Positions 11,969-38,434 of a stretch of 64,000 bases of DNA are shown here, piece by piece. The translations under genes were made by a program, and so were the position numbers. This stretch comes from a virus, in IMG/VR virus record IMGVR_UViG_3300036770_008442, positions 1 to 64,000 of that record. One strand, 5' to 3'. A model generated the notes under the pieces. It ran no database searches and had not been told where the DNA came from. It saw only the letters and a list, made by a program, of their open reading frames with translations. Numbering within the stretch: position 1 is the stretch's first letter; each line of letters starts with the position of its first letter.

Positions 11969-12718
11969 CTATCTTGAATTTTTCGTCCAATTTAGCTCAT
12001 TTTGTTCCAGGTCTCCAATTCTTTTGTCTCTTAAATACACATCAAGATCTACTCTTTCCACATCGAACTCCGATGTGAATAAATGATATTTCAATAGGGT
12101 CTCGGGATGGAAAAGTATTTTCTTATCGACTATATATGTCTCTATTTTTGAATATAGTGAACAGTAGTAAGACATGGCATCCCTTCCTCCCATGGCAAAA
12201 ATGTCATTAATCCCAGATCTCCAGTCATATCCTTTGGGAATTCTAATGACCATTGGATCCAGATTGAATTCAGGAGACTCCTTAAAAAGTAAATCAAATC
12301 TGGATTTAATAATCCTATCATATCTTATTCCGGTTTCCCTCTCATAATCAGTCAGAAGGGAAAGGGCAGATCCTATTTTATACCACATACAGAATACAGA
12401 GCTAAAACTGATCTCCCCATTCTTGATGGAAAAATCCCCCAGTGAATTTGCCCGGTTGATAATATTTTTTATTTTGGGAGAATTAAAATCCTCCGAAAGA
12501 ATTGATTTTGGTTCGTAGATTGAAATGACATCAGAGATGCTCAGGGTATCCTGAATATCCCGGGTCTGTAATTGAACTGTATCAAAAATAGTTTCAGTGG
12601 GATTCCAACAAGAAATAAAAACATCAGGATGATAAACATCAAGAATATTTTGCTTGAATTGAGGAAAATAATCAGAAGCGTTTCTGAATTGTCCCGAAAT
12701 TAATAGAGCAGTTCTCAT
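11969..12718 (-). CDS. Putative glycosyltransferase-like protein
   Basis: ALLISGQFR...DVFISCW...YDRIIKSRFD...INDIFAMG...HPETLL pattern of viral putative GTs; start MRTALL at 12718 with ATGA overlap. Confidence 0.6.
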   Translation of the reverse strand: MRTALLISGQFRNASDYFPQFKQNILDVYHPDVFISCWNPTETIFDTVQLQTRDIQDTLSISDVISIYEPKSILSEDFNSPKIKNIINRANSLGDFSIKNGEISFSSVFCMWYKIGSALSLLTDYERETGIRYDRIIKSRFDLLFKESPEFNLDPMVIRIPKGYDWRSGINDIFAMGGRDAMSYYCSLYSKIETYIVDKKILFHPETLLKYHLFTSEFDVERVDLDVYLRDKRIGDLEQNELNWTKNSR

Positions 12719-13176
12719 AGATATCGGCGGGAATAATCCGTACAAATTGCATAGCACACAGAAACATCATCATTATGTATCTCTGGTAAAACTGCTACAC
12801 TGCCCACGATGGGCTGATTTCCTGGATATGCCCAGATAAAACCAAGAGAGGTCAAGGTAACAGAATCAGACTGGTGCCAAAAATAATTGTATCTACATTT
12901 CCAATGGAAATCACTCTTATCAGAAGCTGATTGGAAAAAACAGAGAGCTTCAAAATTCTTACAATGAATCCAAGTGTTTTTGCATCTATCGGAAAACCAA
13001 GACAGAGAGACTGGGAAATCTGGTTTATCGTGGCCCAAGAAAATTCCGTTTTCTAAGACCCAAACATCGACTTCGACATCAAATCCCCCAGCAAGAGCTG
13101 CATCTATATAATCTGGGTGATTTTCAAGAGATAGATTGGGTCCTTCTAAATTTCCTCGATGTGCAATAATAATCAT
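12715..13176 (-). CDS. Glycerophosphodiester-phosphodiesterase-like (PLC-like) short protein
   Basis: IIAHRGN, EN, DVEVDVW, LGHD, WIHCKN, ICTD motifs. Confidence 0.8.
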   Translation of the reverse strand: MIIIAHRGNLEGPNLSLENHPDYIDAALAGGFDVEVDVWVLENGIFLGHDKPDFPVSLSWFSDRCKNTWIHCKNFEALCFFQSASDKSDFHWKCRYNYFWHQSDSVTLTSLGFIWAYPGNQPIVGSVAVLPEIHNDDVSVCYAICTDYSRRYL

Positions 13177-13180
13177 TCCC

Positions 13181-14416
13181 TTAGAAAATACGATAAGCTA
13201 GATCTTTTGAAAATTTTCGGTCTCCCCATTTTTCAATGGCTGCTTTGTATTCAGGCTTTTCAAATTCCCCATTGATGGCCTGAATCATAGCAATTCCACC
13301 GGATCTTGTTCCCATGGGATGTCCATGCATAGCACCCCCGACGTTAGCCATCCAGTCTGTAGAGTCTATAACCTGATTAATAAACTGAACTAATCCGGGG
13401 TGCATGCCGCAACTAAGAGCAGGAACTATATCAAAAGACCATAAAACCTTTAAGGCATCAATTAATTCTTGGTCTTCCTGGTTCATATAGCCACCTATCA
13501 TTCCTGCATGAATAGAGTCGCAGCCAGACCATCCCGCTATTTTACAGATAACGGGCCAATAGATGTGAAATGGAGCTCTGCGATCAGTAAAGAATTTATC
13601 ACCGCTTTTTTGAAAATGAATCCACAGATCCGGATTTTCTTTTCTAATAGCTCGATAAACACCCAGTCCACTCCATACATTGATGTGAATCCCGTTGCCC
13701 CCGTTTTCTTGAACGAATCGAGCTCTCTCCAAAGCATATGGACTGTCTCCATTGATACAAAAACAATAGATCACATTCGGTGCATGGGAATTAAGCCAGT
13801 TGCTAATGAGAGGAACTCTTACCTCGAGTGGGCAGTGAGCAGGATTGCCCAAAAGCTCGTCTTCCTTGATGAAATTAACCCCTCCTGCCACCATTTCTTT
13901 AACAGCTTCAAGGAGCACATCCGGACTCATCCCAACCTTGGGCTTCACAATTCCACCTAAAAAGGGTTTATCATAAACTCCATTGAAGGATCTAAATCCC
14001 CGGATTCCATAGGCACTCTTTAAGGTAAAAGATCTTTCTACATCAGGGGGAAGTTCAATATCCAAGACGTGACATTTCTGAATTTCCAAAATGTCAACTT
14101 GACCTCCAGCTACATGACAAAGAATTTGGGAGATCCCATCCTCCTCGAGATTCAAATTGCTTAGAGGAAATGCTATCCGAACCTCCCCACTTTTTATTCT
14201 AGCGAGGCCCTCCTCTTCTTCTAGCACTATACATCCGTGATTGAGAAACATTTCTTCAGTTTCCCAAAAGCTTCGGTTATTCGGATTGCCTATGCTCTGG
14301 CCAATTGCTAGATTCCAAGCAGCCTCTCTGAGCGAATTTTTGGCTTCGAGATAATATGTTACCGTGAAATAATCGGATAGATCCAGATCGGATTCATTCC
14401 GAAATATACTAACCAT
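13181..14416 (-). CDS. RuBisCO-like protein (form IV RLP)
   Basis: GIVKPKVG (K175/K177), FIKEDE (carbamate Lys motif), SIHAG, SCGMHPG, GGAMHGHPMG; lacks the E60, N123, H294 and loop-6 K334 equivalents. Confidence 0.92.
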   Translation of the reverse strand: MVSIFRNESDLDLSDYFTVTYYLEAKNSLREAAWNLAIGQSIGNPNNRSFWETEEMFLNHGCIVLEEEEGLARIKSGEVRIAFPLSNLNLEEDGISQILCHVAGGQVDILEIQKCHVLDIELPPDVERSFTLKSAYGIRGFRSFNGVYDKPFLGGIVKPKVGMSPDVLLEAVKEMVAGGVNFIKEDELLGNPAHCPLEVRVPLISNWLNSHAPNVIYCFCINGDSPYALERARFVQENGGNGIHINVWSGLGVYRAIRKENPDLWIHFQKSGDKFFTDRRAPFHIYWPVICKIAGWSGCDSIHAGMIGGYMNQEDQELIDALKVLWSFDIVPALSCGMHPGLVQFINQVIDSTDWMANVGGAMHGHPMGTRSGGIAMIQAINGEFEKPEYKAAIEKWGDRKFSKDLAYRIF

Positions 14417-14427
14417 TTTTTATTAAA

Positions 14428-14748
14428 TTAAATTGCGTATTTATCCCCGGGTTTAGATGGTGTCTTAACGATCAGAACTTCACAGTTTTCAATAAAAATC
14501 GGATCTGCAACTTCATATTTTTTAATGACAAATATATCACCTTTTACCAATTCTTTTCCTTGTATGATCATTCTTCCCCTGATCAATAAATTGATCTCGT
14601 CGCTTTCCCGATGGTAATGTACTGGCCATTTTTCTCCGGCTATATGGGTCTTAAAGCAGACTTCAAAATCACCGGTCTGATAGGCAGAAGGATCGAAATT
14701 TCCGATAAACCATCCTCCTTTATAGCTCTCGATTCTTGTAACTTCCAT
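14428..14748 (-). CDS. Cupin (RmlC-like) protein
   Basis: GWFIGNF, HYH...E cupin metal motif, KTPS..GDKY. Confidence 0.75.
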   Translation of the reverse strand: MEVTRIESYKGGWFIGNFDPSAYQTGDFEVCFKTHIAGEKWPVHYHRESDEINLLIRGRMIIQGKELVKGDIFVIKKYEVADPIFIENCEVLIVKTPSKPGDKYAI

Positions 14749-14778
14749 TTTCTGTTTTTGAATTTAGTTATTCATTGA

Positions 14779-15270
14779 TTATTTACCGATCGGAATTATT
14801 AGACTGGCTGAGACTTCTCCTGTGCTCGGGACATAACTCGCCGCTAAATTACCTAATGATACCCCAAATGCTCCGGGTTCATAAGATACCCCGACATCTG
14901 TATTAGGTATATAATATGTGAAACCTCCCGCTACCATACCTTCACCTGACTCATCATCCCGATACTGGTAAAAAAAAGGTTCAAAACCTTTATCTATTAA
15001 TCCCTGCGATAATCGGGAAACAAAATCCGGTTTAGCCGGGTCTAAATTTAGACCGACAATTTTTTTAGCCAATTCTGTATTTTGTCGGATCTGATCCAAG
15101 AGGGATTTGTTATTTTTAATTATTGAGGGAGTAAGTTTCGGTATTTTTAAGATTGAAGCTGAAACCGGTTTGGTTTTTTTACCCTTATCTAAAATATCCC
15201 TGCTGGATTTTTCTTGTAAAATTTTTGAAAGTTGTTTCATCCTACTGTTTTTTAATTCACCGTCACTCAA
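14779..15270 (-). CDS. Hypothetical protein
   Basis: 163 aa ORF; start uncertain. Confidence 0.6.
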   Translation of the reverse strand: MSDGELKNSRMKQLSKILQEKSSRDILDKGKKTKPVSASILKIPKLTPSIIKNNKSLLDQIRQNTELAKKIVGLNLDPAKPDFVSRLSQGLIDKGFEPFFYQYRDDESGEGMVAGGFTYYIPNTDVGVSYEPGAFGVSLGNLAASYVPSTGEVSASLIIPIGK

Positions 15271-15292
15271 TATTTATTCCCGTAATAATAGA

Positions 15293-16225
15293 TTAGTGAC
15301 TAAATGTATGTGAAGTTTTTTTAATGTTGGGCATATTATTAAATACAAACTCTCTTGGAAATAATCCTCCCCCGAATGGTGCGTTTGGATTGGGAACTCC
15401 GTTGTACAGATCATTAAATAAATAGTTACAAGCGTCGTCACTTAAATTGCCGTATGATCCAATCGACCATCCTGTTCCTATACTATAGTTTGTAATGTAC
15501 CATACCCCGTGATCTTTTTTTCCTCCGAAGATTCCAATATCCTGATACCATTGCCAGTATTGCCAATATGCCGGGTTTTCTATATACCATCCACTTGCAT
15601 TGGAAATAAAGGAATTTTCGTTACACTCAGAAATCCTATCATCACATTGATTACTTGGATACCATGCTGTAATTTCAAAATTAGGTAAAAGAGTATTCCA
15701 TACTTGTTGATCAAGACCAAAAACCGCTTGAAGCATAATGTCAGTATAACCTGTATCAGTTTTGGCGGGTACATCTACCGTTGATAAATCAGATAGTTTT
15801 CCCGAAACTGTGTAAGTTCCGAATGCGGTATTGACTTGTCCTTCATAAACTGTATCCCAATATGTGGTTGGATCATCATAGAATGTTTGTAAATCAAACT
15901 GAAATTGATTGGAGGTATTTTGGAATCTTTCTATAAGACGGCTTGTCGCACTTAAAAGACTCGGTGGTGTATTGGTTGAATATCTTGAAACAACCCCACA
16001 ACAAAAATTGGCGGCGATTTGAGTAACCCCGTCGGATGCTGCCCAAAATGATCCGTCTAAAATATTGATTCCGATTTGGACTCCTAAATCTTTATTGTCT
16101 TGGATGGATAAAAGAGCAAATGCGTTTTCTATTTTGAGATTACCATTCACAAGAATGTCAGAATTTAAGTCCATAAGGTTTCTTAAATTTAATTTTACTT
16201 TGTCGATTTGATCTTGTGGAATCAT
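15293..16225 (-). CDS. Hypothetical Trp/Tyr/Asn-rich protein
   Basis: 310 aa ORF, ATGA overlap with the NTP-transferase. Confidence 0.7.
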   Translation of the reverse strand: MIPQDQIDKVKLNLRNLMDLNSDILVNGNLKIENAFALLSIQDNKDLGVQIGINILDGSFWAASDGVTQIAANFCCGVVSRYSTNTPPSLLSATSRLIERFQNTSNQFQFDLQTFYDDPTTYWDTVYEGQVNTAFGTYTVSGKLSDLSTVDVPAKTDTGYTDIMLQAVFGLDQQVWNTLLPNFEITAWYPSNQCDDRISECNENSFISNASGWYIENPAYWQYWQWYQDIGIFGGKKDHGVWYITNYSIGTGWSIGSYGNLSDDACNYLFNDLYNGVPNPNAPFGGGLFPREFVFNNMPNIKKTSHTFSH

Positions 16226-16971
16226 AGTATGGTATTTTTTTGAATTATCGATTGATATCTTTTGAGGTCTTCTGGAATTCCAATCGGAAAATGCATATTA
16301 AAGAAATAGGGTAATATTTTTTTTCCCTCTTGAATCAAGTAGTTATAGGTTGGAGCAACATAAAATTCCCCATTGCAACGATCGTTGCATTGAATCATTT
16401 GTTCGGCAGATCTAACAAAATCAGAGCCGGATTTCCAATAATGGAGACCGTTGGTTGCTAAATTAGAGATAACCTTTTTCTCCGCTGTCTGAACGACCTC
16501 TCCATCCCGATTGAGTTTGATGTAACTGTTTTTGGGTGACTCCGAGACAAAGCATCCCAAAGCTCCATCGCAATCATGAATCTGTACAAAATCCGAGAAA
16601 AATTGGAAATCAAAGTCCCGAATAATCTGATCACAATTCACAACCAAAAGAGGATTCTGAGAATCGATCTCTTGTTTTGCGAGAAGACATGTCGAAGCCG
16701 GGCCCTCTGTTAAAATAGGTGTGGTTATAATTTGAAACTCAATCCCAGTTTTAGAAACATGCTTAATAAAGTCCAATGGAGGTAGGATCCCCTCCCGAAC
16801 GACAAATAAAAAACGAGAATTTGGGATCTTTAAATTCTTAATAACCGATGTGATCATCGATTCCCCGTCCACGTTAATGAAAGGTTTGGGATCTAAATAT
16901 CCCGCATCAGAGAATCTCTTTCCCAATCCCGCCAAGGGAATTAGTACATTAATTTTTTGGTTCGATCTCAT
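16222..16971 (-). CDS. Sugar-phosphate nucleotidyltransferase (GT-A fold NTP_transferase)
   Basis: LIPLAGLGKRF..GY..PKPFI, TEGPASTC, VNCDQ, EFYVAPTYN, GIPEDL. Confidence 0.88.
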   Translation of the reverse strand: MRSNQKINVLIPLAGLGKRFSDAGYLDPKPFINVDGESMITSVIKNLKIPNSRFLFVVREGILPPLDFIKHVSKTGIEFQIITTPILTEGPASTCLLAKQEIDSQNPLLVVNCDQIIRDFDFQFFSDFVQIHDCDGALGCFVSESPKNSYIKLNRDGEVVQTAEKKVISNLATNGLHYWKSGSDFVRSAEQMIQCNDRCNGEFYVAPTYNYLIQEGKKILPYFFNMHFPIGIPEDLKRYQSIIQKNTIL

Positions 16972-17658: not shown

Positions 17659-17690
17659 AAAAAAAGACCCCGGAAAATTCCGGGGTCTTA
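17659..17690 (-). terminator. Intrinsic terminator
   Basis: Minus strand aagaccccggaa-tt-ttccggggtc followed by ttttttt. Confidence 0.85.
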
Positions 17691-37774: not shown

Positions 37775-38434
37775 ATGTCAGAGAACCAATCAAAAAGAGT
37801 TCCCCGCGGGGAGATGAAATTTTCAATAGTTTTATCAGAAGAACAAAAATCAGCTAAATCTCAAATCCGAAACCACCCCTTTAATTTTCTAACTGGAAAA
37901 ACTGGAAGCGGAAAAACATTGTTGGCTGTACAGATAGCACTGGACTCTTTTTTTAAAAGAGAAGTTGATAAAATAGTCATTACCCGACCAACCGTCTCTA
38001 ATGAAGACAACGGGTTTTTGCCCGGATCATTGGAAGAAAAAATGGAGCCTTGGCTAGTCCCCATTCGATCTAATATGAGAAAGGTTTTCGACAATCCGGA
38101 AATTTTGGATCGGATGGAAAAAGAGGAATGTATAGAACTCGTGTCTTTAACTCATTTCAGGGGTCGGACTTTTGATAATTCTGTTGTTATAGTTGACGAA
38201 TTCCAAAATTTAACTAAACAGCAGCTCGGGATGGTGCTTGGAAGACTTGGAAAAAATTCTAGGATGATCCTATGTGGAGACGGACAGCAGATAGATCTTA
38301 AATTTGCAAACGATTCAGCAATTCACGACATCCCCAAGCTCAAAGAATCTAAATATGTCTTTACAATTGGATTAAAAGATAATCACAGACACGAATCTCT
38401 AGATGAGGTGTTGAGGCTGCTATTTTCTTTTTAG
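37775..38434 (+). CDS. phoH: PhoH-family ATPase
   Basis: GKTGSGKT, ITRP, GFLPGSLEEKMEPW, RGRTF, DEFQN, GDGQQIDL, NHRH. Confidence 0.95.
   Translation: MSENQSKRVPRGEMKFSIVLSEEQKSAKSQIRNHPFNFLTGKTGSGKTLLAVQIALDSFFKREVDKIVITRPTVSNEDNGFLPGSLEEKMEPWLVPIRSNMRKVFDNPEILDRMEKEECIELVSLTHFRGRTFDNSVVIVDEFQNLTKQQLGMVLGRLGKNSRMILCGDGQQIDLKFANDSAIHDIPKLKESKYVFTIGLKDNHRHESLDEVLRLLFSF

What the first reader, a model, noticed from the sequence alone, without database searches (positions are those of the whole stretch)
11969..16971. Phage-encoded RuBisCO-like protein embedded in a sugar-nucleotide/glycosylation operon
Seen: co-oriented, partly overlapping genes for a sugar-phosphate nucleotidyltransferase (16222-16971), cupin (14428-14748), form IV RLP (13181-14416), GDPD-like phosphodiesterase (12715-13176) and glycosyltransferase-like protein (11969-12718), inside a phage. 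Known: characterised RLPs perform enolate chemistry on sugar phosphates (methionine-salvage enolase/isomerase, and enzymes of branched-sugar catabolism such as apiose and hamamelose). Inference: this RLP runs in a biosynthetic direction, making an unusual (possibly branched or rearranged) sugar phosphate that is NDP-activated and transferred to virion proteins, phage DNA or the host surface. An anabolic glycan role for an RLP in a virus would be a new system.
Basis: partly seen in the sequence, partly recalled or inferred. Interest (0 to 1): 0.9.

Follow-up and report, generated by a model that had tools for sequence, protein, structure and literature searches.

The report
Phage RuBisCO-like enzyme in sugar-activation cassette
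A large uncultured phage carries a RuBisCO relative that cannot fix CO2 and sits in one gene cassette with a sugar-activating enzyme, a small metal enzyme, a miniature phosphodiesterase and a glycosyltransferase-fold protein, so it probably helps build an unusual activated sugar, a job never tested for this enzyme family.

Summary
In detail: all five genes are at the stated coordinates on the minus strand of an IMG/VR phage record. Two unmentioned ORFs lie between the cupin and the nucleotidyltransferase.

The RLP is not a methionine-salvage enzyme. It belongs to a separate, well-supported clade (SH-aLRT 99) that includes a Beckwithbacteria sequence, so it is probably the 'form IV-like' phage clade of Jaffe et al. 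2018 (PMC6389311). Phage RLPs are therefore already known.

Apparently not in print is the linkage:
- A nucleotidyltransferase homologue lies near the RLP in 77 of 80 viral and 38 of 42 cellular loci.
- A cupin lies near it in 76 of 80 viral loci.
- Fusions exist: RLP with nucleotidyltransferase, and nucleotidyltransferase with cupin in 14 loci.
- The cassette sits in glycan gene clusters of phages, giant-virus bins, SAR11, DPANN/CPR and two cultured bacteria.

This supports an anabolic, nucleotide-activation-coupled role. Substrate, product, direction and target remain untested, and nothing supports a branched sugar. A heptose link was tested and is not general (3 of 22 records).

This scan has reported the same cassette on other DNA many times.

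The parts
16222..16971 (-). Sugar-phosphate nucleotidyltransferase (249 aa). It is the constant partner of the RLP.
   Evidence: PF00483 5.2e-07 at 29.9 bits against cut-off 21.2. phrog_3980 1.2e-57. Best solved relative is 4evw, an 'NDP-sugar pyrophosphorylase', at 8.2e-22. A homologue is present in 77 of 80 viral loci and 38 of 42 cellular loci. It is fused to the RLP in P0122.
15293..16225 (-). Unknown 310-aa ORF, a window-specific insert. It overlaps the nucleotidyltransferase stop by 4 nt.
   Evidence: ORF. No Pfam, NCBIfam or PHROG hit. Present in 0 of 80 related loci. ESM Atlas gave only hits at or below 0.81 with no family.
14779..15270 (-). Unknown 163-aa ORF, a window-specific insert.
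   Evidence: ORF. No family hit. Present in 0 of 80 related loci.
14428..14748 (-). Small metal-type cupin (106 aa).
   Evidence: Invariant H44, H46 and E51 in 30 homologues. Profile hits to solved cupins. phrog_24762 8.3e-27. Present in 76 of 80 viral loci, median gap to the RLP 17 bp. In one ORF with the nucleotidyltransferase in 14 loci.
13181..14416 (-). RuBisCO-like protein (411 aa) of a distinct 'form IV-like' clade.
   Evidence: PF00016 2e-30. All NCBIfam equivalogs score far below cut-off. The clade is separated at SH-aLRT 99. The KPK and K-E-D-E motifs are kept. The positions aligned to E60, N123, H294, R295 and K334 are changed.
12715..13176 (-). Miniature GDPD-like phosphodiesterase-fold protein (153 aa).
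   Evidence: Invariant H6-R7-G8, E18-N19, E35, D37 and H49. Profile hit to GDPD 7e0v at 3.9e-05. AF2 pLDDT 95. Foldseek top hits are GDPDs, but weak. Present in 63 of 80 viral and 22 of 42 cellular loci.
11969..12718 (-). DUF7796 protein with a GT-A glycosyltransferase fold. The probable start is the ATG at 12718; the longest ORF starts at the GTG at 12757.
   Evidence: Weak DUF7796 hit at 0.0024. phrog_13607 1.5e-16. AF2 pLDDT 88, with the first 15 residues of the long ORF poorly modelled. 201 Foldseek hits at E <= 0.001 to GT6/GT8-type enzymes. Fused to the GDPD-like protein in L062.
17664..17689 (-). Terminator-like hairpin just upstream of the RuvC-like gene. It may mark the 5' boundary of the transcription unit that holds the cassette.
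   Evidence: Stem of 11 bp with 7 G-C pairs, followed by a T run. This is a consensus match only, and the number of such sites in the region is not above the shuffles.

Best explanation
The RLP is one enzyme of a portable cassette that makes a nucleotide-activated sugar, or sugar-like phosphate, for a glycan.

Proposed order (all steps inferred; none assayed):
1. The RLP uses its retained carbamyl-lysine/Mg site to enolise a common keto-sugar phosphate of the host. It returns it as an isomer or epimer that still carries its phosphate.
2. The small cupin carries out a further metal-dependent isomerisation, as the cupin half of bifunctional phosphomannose isomerase/GDP-mannose pyrophosphorylase does.
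3. The nucleotidyltransferase joins the product to an NMP.
4. The GT-A-fold DUF7796 protein transfers it to an acceptor.
5. The miniature GDPD-like protein makes or trims a phosphoester or phosphodiester on the way.

Shown: gene order, homology, fold, residue conservation, co-occurrence and fusions.
Inferred: every chemical step, the direction, the substrate and the acceptor.

The confidence figure is for the pathway-level claim, namely that the RLP is functionally coupled to nucleotide activation in glycan building. The specific isomerase/epimerase chemistry I rate at about 0.4.
For: (1) Linkage. A nucleotidyltransferase homologue lies in 77 of 80 viral RLP loci, 73 of them within 1.5 kb. A cupin lies in 76 of 80 and a GDPD-like gene in 63 of 80. 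Only 16 of the 80 share this phage's replication backbone. The linkage therefore recurs on unrelated genomes, including five records labelled as giant-virus bins.

(2) Cellular loci. The nucleotidyltransferase is within 1.5 kb of the RLP in 38 of 42 loci. These include a complete Pelagibacter chromosome, Nonomuraea rosea, Azospirillum oleiclasticum, Elusimicrobia, DPANN and CPR.

(3) Fusions. RLP with NTP_transferase in P0122, which is 53% identical to the window RLP. Nucleotidyltransferase with cupin in one ORF in 14 loci, a beta-phosphoglucomutase-family HAD domain with nucleotidyltransferase in 12 loci, and GDPD-like with DUF7796 in 1 locus.

(4) Neighbours are glycan genes. In SAR11 the cassette sits among GT17, GT61, a methyltransferase and RmlD-like genes directly after pheT and lepA.

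(5) Active site. K175, K177, K201, D203, E204, H327, S379, G381 and G403/404 equivalents are invariant in 23 diverse members. The carboxylation-specific positions are replaced (spinach numbering is recalled).

(6) The DUF7796 protein has a GT-A fold.

(7) RLP-less relatives. Cultured cyanophages carry the nucleotidyltransferase (22 records), the GDPD-like gene (17) and the cupin (3) in glycosyltransferase clusters, but no RLP in any of 50,697 records. In Bellamy and S-SM2 a class II aldolase-family gene lies in the same cluster. That family also forms enediolates on ketose phosphates. It was found in 0 of 122 RLP loci.
Against: - No biochemical datum exists for any member.
- The cupin is missing or undetected in 28 of 42 cellular loci, and the GDPD-like gene in 20 of 42 and in 17 of 80 viral loci. 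Only the RLP-nucleotidyltransferase pair is constant.
- The cupin's 2-His/1-Glu site fits a dioxygenase as well as an isomerase. Its best solved match by E-value is a quercetin dioxygenase.
- The GDPD-like and GT-A assignments rest on weak structural scores: TMq 0.35-0.58 and 0.37-0.47.
- The 80 viral loci are not independent. Several are near-identical, and collapses only some of them.
- Loci were found through the RLP, so co-occurrence is one-directional. The nucleotidyltransferase-cupin pair also exists without an RLP within 1.5 kb (Bellamy).
- A specific heptose idea was not borne out. This genome has an rfaE-domain-I-like kinase, but only 3 of 22 RLP-bearing viral records have one.
Confidence: 0.7

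Rival explanations
1. The chemistry copies the enolase-phosphatase-dioxygenase segment of methionine salvage, but in a glycan context. The RLP acts as an enolase on a diketo-sugar 1-phosphate. The GDPD-like protein removes the phosphate. The cupin acts as an acireductone-type dioxygenase that cleaves off one carbon to give a 2-keto-acid sugar. The nucleotidyltransferase then activates that sugar.
For: The three enzyme types (RLP, phosphoesterase, 2-His/1-Glu cupin) parallel MtnW, MtnX and MtnD; the pathway is as recalled and as stated in the abstract of PMC3698126 listed. The best solved match of the cupin profile is a dioxygenase (2.3e-06). MtnW-type models are the third-best NCBIfam hit of the RLP.
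Against: The nucleotidyltransferase matches sugar-1-phosphate enzymes (PF00483, RmlA/GlmU-type models). No match to a CMP-ulosonate synthetase model appeared in those outputs. The cupin and the GDPD-like gene are dispensable in many loci, including the DPANN loci, whereas RLP plus nucleotidyltransferase stay together. No MtnA-family (IF-2B) or class II aldolase/MtnB-family gene was found in 0 of 122 loci.
Confidence: 0.12
2. The cassette makes a donor for modifying the phage's own DNA (a glycosylated or otherwise hypermodified base) rather than a protein or surface glycan.
For: In this phage lineage the cassette lies between the RuvC-like and gp32/primase/helicase genes, in 16 of 80 viral loci and in L083. 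It is co-oriented with them.
Against: The cellular homologues lie in surface-glycan islands with GT2/GT17/GT61 genes. Most viral loci place the cassette among GDP-mannose dehydratase, aminotransferase, epimerase and O-methyltransferase genes. No base-modifying enzyme was seen next to the cassette.
Confidence: 0.06
3. The RLP is a stand-alone auxiliary metabolic gene for host methionine/MTA or sulfur salvage (YkrW- or DeepYkr-type), and its neighbours are coincidental.
For: A DeepYkr RLP with an adjacent cupin performs MTA salvage in R. palustris and R. rubrum (PMC5893883, passages read).
Against: The RLP lies outside the MtnW-labelled clade and scores 84-115 bits against MtnW cut-offs of 409-514. 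The cupin profile finds only 3 strong matches in 301 alphaproteobacterial genomes. All 3 lie beside nucleotidyltransferase homologues, and the weak cupin hits have no RLP within 1.5 kb. No MtnA-family gene occurs in 122 loci or in the 128-kb genome fragment. The fusion to a nucleotidyltransferase is unexplained by this reading.
Confidence: 0.04
4. It is a working carboxylase (form III-like) used in nucleotide salvage.
For: The best NCBIfam hit by score is the form III model (142 bits).
Against: That score is far below the cut-off of 497. The positions aligned to E60, N123, H294, R295 and K334 are Gly, Gly, Gln, Lys and Tyr, and are invariant in the family. No IF-2B-type ribose-1,5-bisphosphate isomerase lies nearby.
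Confidence: 0.02

Closest known systems
'Form IV-like' RuBisCO-related proteins of phages and Beckwithbacteria (Jaffe, Castelle, Dupont & Banfield, Mol Biol Evol 2018/2019, PMC6389311; passages read)
   Same: These are divergent RLPs on putative Myoviridae and large phage contigs from IMG/VR, grouping with Beckwithbacteria. Here a Beckwithbacteria locus (L093, 50% identity) falls inside the window's clade.
   Different: That paper leaves the function open. Its main text has no occurrence of nucleotidyl, glycosyl, cupin or neighbor. The cassette, the fusions, and the SAR11, giant-virus and isolate carriers are not described there. Its supplementary figure S1 (phage genome map) could not be seen. 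I had none of their sequences, so identity of the clades is inferred through Beckwithbacteria.
DeepYkr RLP plus adjacent cupin of the MTA-isoprenoid shunt (R. rubrum; R. palustris RPA2169/RPA2170; PMC5893883, passages read)
   Same: An RLP gene lies next to a small cupin gene. The RLP moves a carbonyl along a ketose 1-phosphate through enediolates and keeps the phosphate. The cupin acts on its product.
   Different: The RLP clade is different. The cassette cupin profile finds no strong relative beside an RLP outside the cassette in 301 alphaproteobacterial genomes. MtnA/MtnP-type genes are absent. The partner here is a nucleotidyltransferase in glycan clusters, not a sulfur-salvage set.
Bifunctional type II phosphomannose isomerase / GDP-mannose pyrophosphorylase (NTP_transferase domain plus cupin isomerase domain; recalled, not tested here)
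   Same: The two-domain logic matches the nucleotidyltransferase-cupin fusions found in 14 viral loci and in one alphaproteobacterial genome.
   Different: The cupin here has 106 aa and gets no hit to any Pfam cupin or isomerase model. Homology to the PMI domain is not shown beyond a 1.6e-04 profile hit to a 113-aa protein deposited as 'mannose-6-phosphate isomerase' (7zvm).
Glycan gene clusters of cultured T4-like cyanophages (Bellamy NC_047838, S-SM2 NC_015279, S-CAM9, S-PRM1 and others)
   Same: They hold homologues of the nucleotidyltransferase (often HAD-fused), the GDPD-like protein, DUF7796 and, in Bellamy, the cupin, among glycosyltransferases and epimerases.
   Different: None has an RLP (0 of 50,697 phage records). 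A class II aldolase-family gene stands in the Bellamy and S-SM2 clusters instead.
MtnW/YkrW 2,3-diketo-5-methylthiopentyl-1-phosphate enolase
   Same: Same superfamily. The KPK and carbamyl-lysine/Asp/Glu metal motifs are retained.
   Different: Scores of 84.5 and 115.2 bits against cut-offs of 513.6 and 409. It lies on the other side of a branch with SH-aLRT 99. The genomic context is different.

Membership tests
RuBisCO large-subunit superfamily (PF00016) | Significant match to the catalytic TIM-barrel domain above Pfam's cut-off. | tested here: met
   106.5 bits against a cut-off of 30.1. 98 solved RuBisCO/RLP sequences match at E <= 1e-05.
Bona fide RuBisCO (forms I-III) | The full carboxylase residue set, including E60, N123, H294, R295 and loop-6 K334 (spinach numbering, recalled). 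| tested here: not met
   In the alignment to 2cwx these positions are G39, G105, Q269, K270 and Y310. They are invariant across 23 family members. The form III model scores 142 bits against a cut-off of 497.
Bona fide RuBisCO (forms I-III) | Carbamyl-lysine and metal ligands (K201, D203, E204) and K175/K177. | tested here: met
   K158-P-K160 and K184-E-D186-E187 are invariant. These residues are shared with active RLPs, so they do not make it a carboxylase.
MtnW/YkrW methionine-salvage enolase | Score above the equivalog cut-off and placement in the MtnW clade. | tested here: not met
   115.2 bits against 409, and 84.5 against 513.6. The MtnW-labelled representatives (P0226 at 606 bits, over the cut-off) lie across a 99-supported branch.
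MtnW/YkrW methionine-salvage enolase | Pathway context (MtnA, MtnB and others nearby or in the genome). | tested here: not met
   IF-2B-family and class II aldolase-family queries found 0 of 80 viral loci, 0 of 42 cellular loci and nothing in the 128-kb genome fragment. The fragment is estimated at only 46% of the genome.
OiaX-type apiose-pathway RLP decarboxylase | Score above the equivalog cut-off, or placement in that clade. | tested here: not met
   109.1 bits against a cut-off of 700. The OiaX-like representatives form their own 100-supported group on the other side of the tree.
Jaffe et al. 'form IV-like' phage/Beckwithbacteria clade | Groups with Beckwithbacteria RLPs and phage RLPs, apart from the other RLP clades. 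| tested here: inconclusive
   A Beckwithbacteria MAG locus (L093) and 23 viral sequences fall in the same 99-100-supported clade. None of the published sequences was available for direct comparison.
Sugar-1-phosphate nucleotidyltransferase (PF00483) | Match above Pfam's cut-off over the nucleotide-binding core. | tested here: met
   29.9 bits against 21.2 over residues 14-182. Substrate specificity is not testable with these tools.
Cupin superfamily | Motif 1 (G-x5-H-x-H-x3,4-E-x6-G) and a beta-barrel of matching size. | tested here: met
   H44, H46, E51 and G58 are invariant. The profile matches solved cupins. The Nonomuraea homologue has a weak Cupin_2 hit. The window protein itself has no Pfam hit, and its fold was not predicted.
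Glycerophosphodiester phosphodiesterase (GDPD) | Full (beta/alpha)8 barrel of about 220-250 aa with the H-R...E...E-x-D...H catalytic set. | tested here: inconclusive
   The catalytic motif is present and invariant and aligned to 7e0v at 3.9e-05. The protein has only 153 aa, gets no Pfam hit, and Foldseek E-values are >= 1.1e-03 with TMq 0.35-0.58.
GT-A glycosyltransferases | GT-A Rossmann-like fold. | tested here: met
   201 Foldseek hits at E <= 0.001, with probability 1.00 for GT6/GT8 enzymes, although TMq is only 0.37-0.47.
GT-A glycosyltransferases | Catalytic DxD-type motif binding the nucleotide sugar. | not tested
   Invariant R153 and D155, and nearly invariant D147 and D185, were seen in the alignment. 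They were not mapped onto a donor site.

The most novel reading that the evidence does not exclude
A branch of the RuBisCO superfamily is a biosynthetic enzyme. Wired, and sometimes fused, to a nucleotidyltransferase, it makes the precursor of an as yet unidentified nucleotide-activated sugar or sugar phosphate. Phages, giant viruses, SAR11, DPANN/CPR cells and a few cultured bacteria use that product to decorate surfaces. In RLP-less clusters a class II aldolase-family enzyme does the equivalent step.
Probability: 0.55. Interest if true: 0.85.

Novelty: new variant of a known kind. Interest (0 to 1): 0.65.

Why it matters
Every characterised RLP acts in salvage or catabolism: methionine/MTA salvage and apiose breakdown. 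An RLP that feeds a nucleotidyltransferase would give the RuBisCO fold an anabolic role.

It would also point to an unknown activated sugar in some of the most abundant marine cells (SAR11) and their viruses. There, surface glycans decide who is infected by what.

The question is directly testable. Three cultured carriers turned up here, along with culturable cyanophages that carry the RLP-less version of the cluster.

Tried and rejected
Heptose route. The same genome carries a PfkB kinase at G000 92312-93304 that scores 301.9 bits on the heptose-7-phosphate kinase model (cut-off 345). Cyanophage clusters also have genes annotated as 'phosphoheptose isomerase'. However, no SIS_2 or HAD 'Hydrolase_like' domain was found in the 128-kb fragment. 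Such a kinase occurs in only 3 of 22 RLP-bearing viral records searched (7 of the 29 handles I asked for were not held), and in 1 of 80 loci within 8 kb. I rejected it as a general explanation.

Kinship of the cassette cupin with the DeepYkr-linked methylsulfurylase cupin. The profile search of 301 alphaproteobacterial genomes gave 3 strong matches, all beside nucleotidyltransferase homologues, and 5 genomes with weak matches. The weak matches have no RLP within 1.5 kb. No support. No labelled methylsulfurylase sequence was available, so this is not a refutation.

Searches that gave nothing useful:
- tblastn of the RLP and megablast of 12 kb against 50,697 phage records: no match.
- PDB sequence profile search with the DUF7796 alignment: one chance-level hit.
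- ESM Atlas for the 310-aa insert ORF: nothing at or above 0.9.
- The T4 late-promoter word TATAAATA is not enriched (6 found, 6.4 expected).
- Sigma-70-like sites are fewer than in shuffles (12 against 22.5), so expression timing could not be read.

Literature. Six full-text searches found no paper that links an RLP to a nucleotidyltransferase, a cupin, nucleotide sugars or the SAR11 hypervariable region. PMC13454268 has no mention of phage, viral or form IV. The library lacks most subscription journals, and supplements were closed. Tabita et al. 2007 was not held, so whether this clade equals their 'IV-GOS' clade is only a recollection.

Complex prediction, sequencing-run look-up and the metagenome scan were not used.

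Full report
OBSERVATION

The window is the first 64 kb of a 128,254-base IMG/VR virus record, estimated 46% complete. Nearly all ORFs of 100 aa or more that are not nested inside a longer ORF are on the minus strand.

- Nucleotidyltransferase (16222-16971). It passes Pfam's cut-off for PF00483 (29.9 bits against 21.2) and matches phrog_3980 at 1.2e-57.
- RLP (13181-14416). It matches PF00016 at 2e-30.
- The other three get no Pfam family above cut-off, so their labels had to be tested.
  - Cupin. Thirty homologues keep an invariant H-x-H-x4-E motif. Their profile hits solved cupins.
  - 'GDPD-like' protein. Thirty homologues keep H-R-G, E-N, E-x-D and H-D invariant or nearly so. The profile aligns this stretch to the catalytic N-terminus of a Pyrococcus GDPD at 3.9e-05. 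A confident model (pLDDT 95) has GDPDs as top structural neighbours, but weakly (best E 1.1e-03, TMq 0.35-0.58). It is a 153-aa miniature of a fold that normally needs about 220-250 residues.
- 'Glycosyltransferase-like' protein. The model (pLDDT 88) gives 201 structural matches at E <= 0.001, led by GT-A retaining enzymes: BoGT6a, the human ABO transferases and glycogenin. The first 15 residues of the longest ORF are poorly modelled.

Two more ORFs (14779-15270 and 15293-16225) lie between the cupin and the nucleotidyltransferase. They have no family hit and no counterpart in any of 80 related loci. They are a private insertion of this phage.

Flanking genes are gp32-like, primase-like and helicase on one side, and RuvC-like, tail tube and sheath-like on the other. 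A strong terminator-like hairpin lies just upstream of the RuvC-like gene.

WHICH RLP

No NCBIfam equivalog comes near its cut-off:

| Model | Score (bits) | Cut-off (bits) |
|---|---|---|
| Form III | 142 | 497 |
| MtnW (two models) | 115 and 84.5 | 409 and 514 |
| OiaX | 109 | 700 |

A search of 1.84 billion representatives found 869 relatives at E <= 0.001 but only 48 at E <= 1e-30. Identity drops sharply from 36% or more to about 30%.

Two trees were built.
- A FastTree of 161 sequences: 23 viral, 39 from cellular loci, and 99 representatives of 340-500 aa. Longer and shorter representatives were left out. It puts 83 sequences, including all viral and cellular-locus ones, on one side of branches with support 99 and 100.
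- An IQ-TREE (mixture model, short search) of a hand-picked 56 of those rows. It gives the family of 31 rows as one side of a branch with SH-aLRT 99.

On the other side lie representatives that I labelled with NCBIfam:
- an MtnW group (P0226 at 606 bits, over the cut-off);
- an OiaX-like group (431 and 364 bits, under the cut-off);
- a near-form-III group (445 and 408 bits, under the cut-off).

Only 10 outgroup rows were labelled; the rest are unnamed.

Inside the family, viral and cellular sequences are interleaved. The viral label needs at least 8 changes on the tree. A Beckwithbacteria sequence lies inside the family. This ties it to the 'form IV-like' phage/Beckwithbacteria clade of Jaffe et al. 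(PMC6389311). They reported about 80 non-redundant phage sequences, some from Myoviridae, and left the function open (passages read).

ACTIVE SITE

In the HMMER alignments to solved RuBisCOs, combined with the invariant columns of 23 diverse family members, two groups of positions stand out. The residue numbering is spinach numbering, recalled rather than computed.
- Kept and invariant: K-P-K (K175/K177), K-E-D-E (K201, D203, E204), H327, S379, G381 and G403/G404.
- Replaced, and fixed within the family:

| RuBisCO position | Residue in this family |
|---|---|
| E60 | Gly |
| N123 | Gly |
| H294 | Gln |
| R295 | Lys |
| K334 | Tyr |
| G380 | Cys |

This is the pattern of an active enolising RLP, not of a carboxylase.

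LINKAGE

This is the main result. A protein-guided scan of IMG/VR found 120 stretches encoding a relative; 80 were fetched. tblastn with the window's proteins at E <= 1e-05 gave these counts:

| Window gene | Viral loci with a homologue (of 80) |
|---|---|
| Nucleotidyltransferase | 77 |
| Cupin | 76 |
| GDPD-like | 63 |
| DUF7796 | 32 |
| This phage's helicase / primase / RuvC backbone | 16 |

- Within 1.5 kb of the RLP the counts are 73, 73 and 54. The median gap from cupin to RLP is 17 bp.
- The three loci without a nucleotidyltransferase hit are L016, L017 and L040.
- Several loci are near-duplicates, so 80 overstates the independent cases. The architectures printed still show many unrelated surroundings. 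Five loci come from records labelled as giant-virus bins.

A second scan, of one genome per prokaryotic species, gave 42 loci.
- They include a complete Pelagibacter chromosome and many SAR11 single-cell genomes.
- They also include Woesearchaeota/Nanoarchaeota, Patescibacteria, Verrucomicrobia and Elusimicrobia, and two cultured bacteria, Nonomuraea rosea and Azospirillum oleiclasticum.
- One locus (L083, a bin labelled Saprospirales) is this same phage type.
- A nucleotidyltransferase lies within 1.5 kb of the RLP in 38 of 42, a GDPD-like gene is present in 22, and a cupin in 14.

Fusions tie the parts together:
- a 667-aa protein, 53% identical to the window RLP, carries RuBisCO_large followed by NTP_transferase;
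- nucleotidyltransferase and cupin share one ORF in 14 viral loci;
- a beta-phosphoglucomutase-family HAD domain precedes the nucleotidyltransferase in 12 loci;
- GDPD-like and DUF7796 are fused in one locus.

CONTEXT

- Genes next to the cassette in related viral loci: TylF/FkbM-type methyltransferases, GDP-mannose 4,6-dehydratase, a DegT aminotransferase, UDP-GlcNAc 2-epimerase and GT2.
- In a SAR11 genome the order is pheT, lepA, GT17, GDPD-like, unknown, RLP, nucleotidyltransferase, unknown, GT61, methyltransferase, RmlD-like.
- In Nonomuraea the order is integrase, GDPD-like, RLP, cupin, nucleotidyltransferase, GT2, a protein with an AdoHcyase-type NAD domain, and a dNK-like kinase.

These are glycan islands. 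Queries for the MtnA family (IF-2B) and for the class II aldolase/MtnB family found nothing in the 122 loci or in the phage fragment.

RLP-LESS RELATIVES

Among 50,697 deposited phage genomes none has the RLP. 22 have the nucleotidyltransferase, 17 the GDPD-like gene and 3 the cupin; all but three of the nucleotidyltransferase records are Synechococcus phages.
- In phage Bellamy the order is glycosyltransferases, phosphatase, HAD-type nucleotidyltransferase, cupin, a DUF7796 homologue, and then, a few genes on, a class II aldolase-family gene, a small gene annotated 'phosphoheptose isomerase', and the GDPD-like gene.
- S-SM2 is similar.
- The Bellamy aldolase-family protein scores best on L-ribulose-5-phosphate 4-epimerase, ribulose-1-phosphate aldolase and related models, all below cut-off.

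That family, like RLPs, works through metal-stabilised enediolates of ketose phosphates. In R. palustris a class II aldolase and an RLP act on the same substrate (PMC5893883). I read this as a possible case of non-homologous replacement. It rests on two phage genomes and is an inference.

MECHANISM

What is shown is genetic coupling, not chemistry.
- The constant pair is RLP plus nucleotidyltransferase, so the RLP's product most simply keeps a phosphate that the transferase then uses.
- The known RLP reactions that keep the phosphate are enolisation and carbonyl migration or epimerisation.
- The nucleotidyltransferase-cupin fusion recalls the bifunctional phosphomannose isomerase / GDP-mannose pyrophosphorylase (recalled). 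I therefore favour an isomerase role for the cupin.
- Its 2-His/1-Glu site and its best solved match (a dioxygenase) keep open a methionine-salvage-like enolase/phosphatase/dioxygenase scheme.
- The role of the GDPD-like protein is the least clear.

A heptose route was considered because this genome encodes an rfaE-domain-I-like kinase. Only 3 of 22 RLP-bearing viral records have such a kinase, so it cannot be the general route. Nothing speaks for a branched sugar.

The acceptor is unknown. The cellular contexts argue for surface glycans. The position beside replication genes in this phage lineage leaves DNA modification as a minor possibility.

NOVELTY

Phage RLPs are published; the cassette and its fusions are not, as far as six full-text searches could show. 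The Jaffe paper's main text does not mention the neighbours. Its supplements, and most subscription journals, could not be checked.

Within this scan the same cassette has been reported many times on other genomes: 110 notes in at least 75 genomes. The follow-up readings there match mine. I reached my reading before looking.

New relative to what those notes show:
- the negative test of the heptose idea;
- the class II aldolase counterpart in cultured cyanophages;
- the private two-gene insertion in this phage.

VERDICT

This is a new functional setting for a known protein clade and is worth bench work. The chemistry remains open.

Noticed in passing
G000:C1:92312-93304 (outside the window, same record; L125:9313-10305): A PfkB-family kinase scores 301.9 bits on the D-glycero-beta-D-manno-heptose-7-phosphate kinase model (cut-off 345). 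No SIS_2 isomerase or HAD 'Hydrolase_like' domain was found in the 128-kb fragment.
   Followed up: yes
L083 (contig CALAZP010000190.1, a MAG labelled Saprospirales): This locus carries the same phage backbone and cassette as the window: helicase 83%, gp32 68%, RLP 77% identical. It is either phage DNA binned with a Bacteroidota MAG or a hint at the host group.
   Followed up: no
L065 and L071 compared with the window: These phages share the backbone (helicase 85%, tail tube 81%) and the insertion site between the RuvC-like and gp32 genes, but their RLP is only 51-52% identical. In the tree the L065 RLP groups with other viral alleles, L042 and L078 (L071 was not in the tree). The cassette appears to have been exchanged as a unit at a fixed site.
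   Followed up: partly
P0205 (583 aa, from the representative search): A TIR domain is fused N-terminally to a full RuBisCO-like protein of another clade (TIR_2 3.3e-13; RuBisCO_large 9.8e-46). This could be a defence-type architecture.
   Followed up: no
P0160, P0162, P0235: Other RuBisCO-superfamily fusions turned up: an IF-2B (ribose-1,5-bisphosphate/MTR-1-P isomerase family) domain fused to RuBisCO (726 and 742 aa), and a 1265-aa protein with RuBisCO plus an APH-type phosphotransferase domain.
   Followed up: no
L131 (G317:C1, an alphaproteobacterial genome) and L129: A cassette-type cupin lies next to a nucleotidyltransferase homologue in both loci. In L131 the cupin lies in a 361-aa open frame and is followed directly by the nucleotidyltransferase match, probably a fusion. 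No RLP lies within the 1.5 kb fetched on each side. The nucleotidyltransferase-cupin pair therefore also exists without an adjacent RLP.
   Followed up: partly
window 37775-38434 (+): A PhoH-like gene (PF02562, 4.7e-51) is among the very few long plus-strand ORFs that are not nested inside a minus-strand gene. It lies among minus-strand genes between 36.7 and 42.4 kb that were not annotated here.
   Followed up: no
L126 (phage Bellamy) 10013-10321 and homologues in 8 RLP loci: A 102-aa protein is annotated 'phosphoheptose isomerase'. It is too short for a SIS domain and has no NCBIfam hit, yet it recurs in 8 of 80 RLP loci and in the Pelagibacter chromosome locus.
   Followed up: partly
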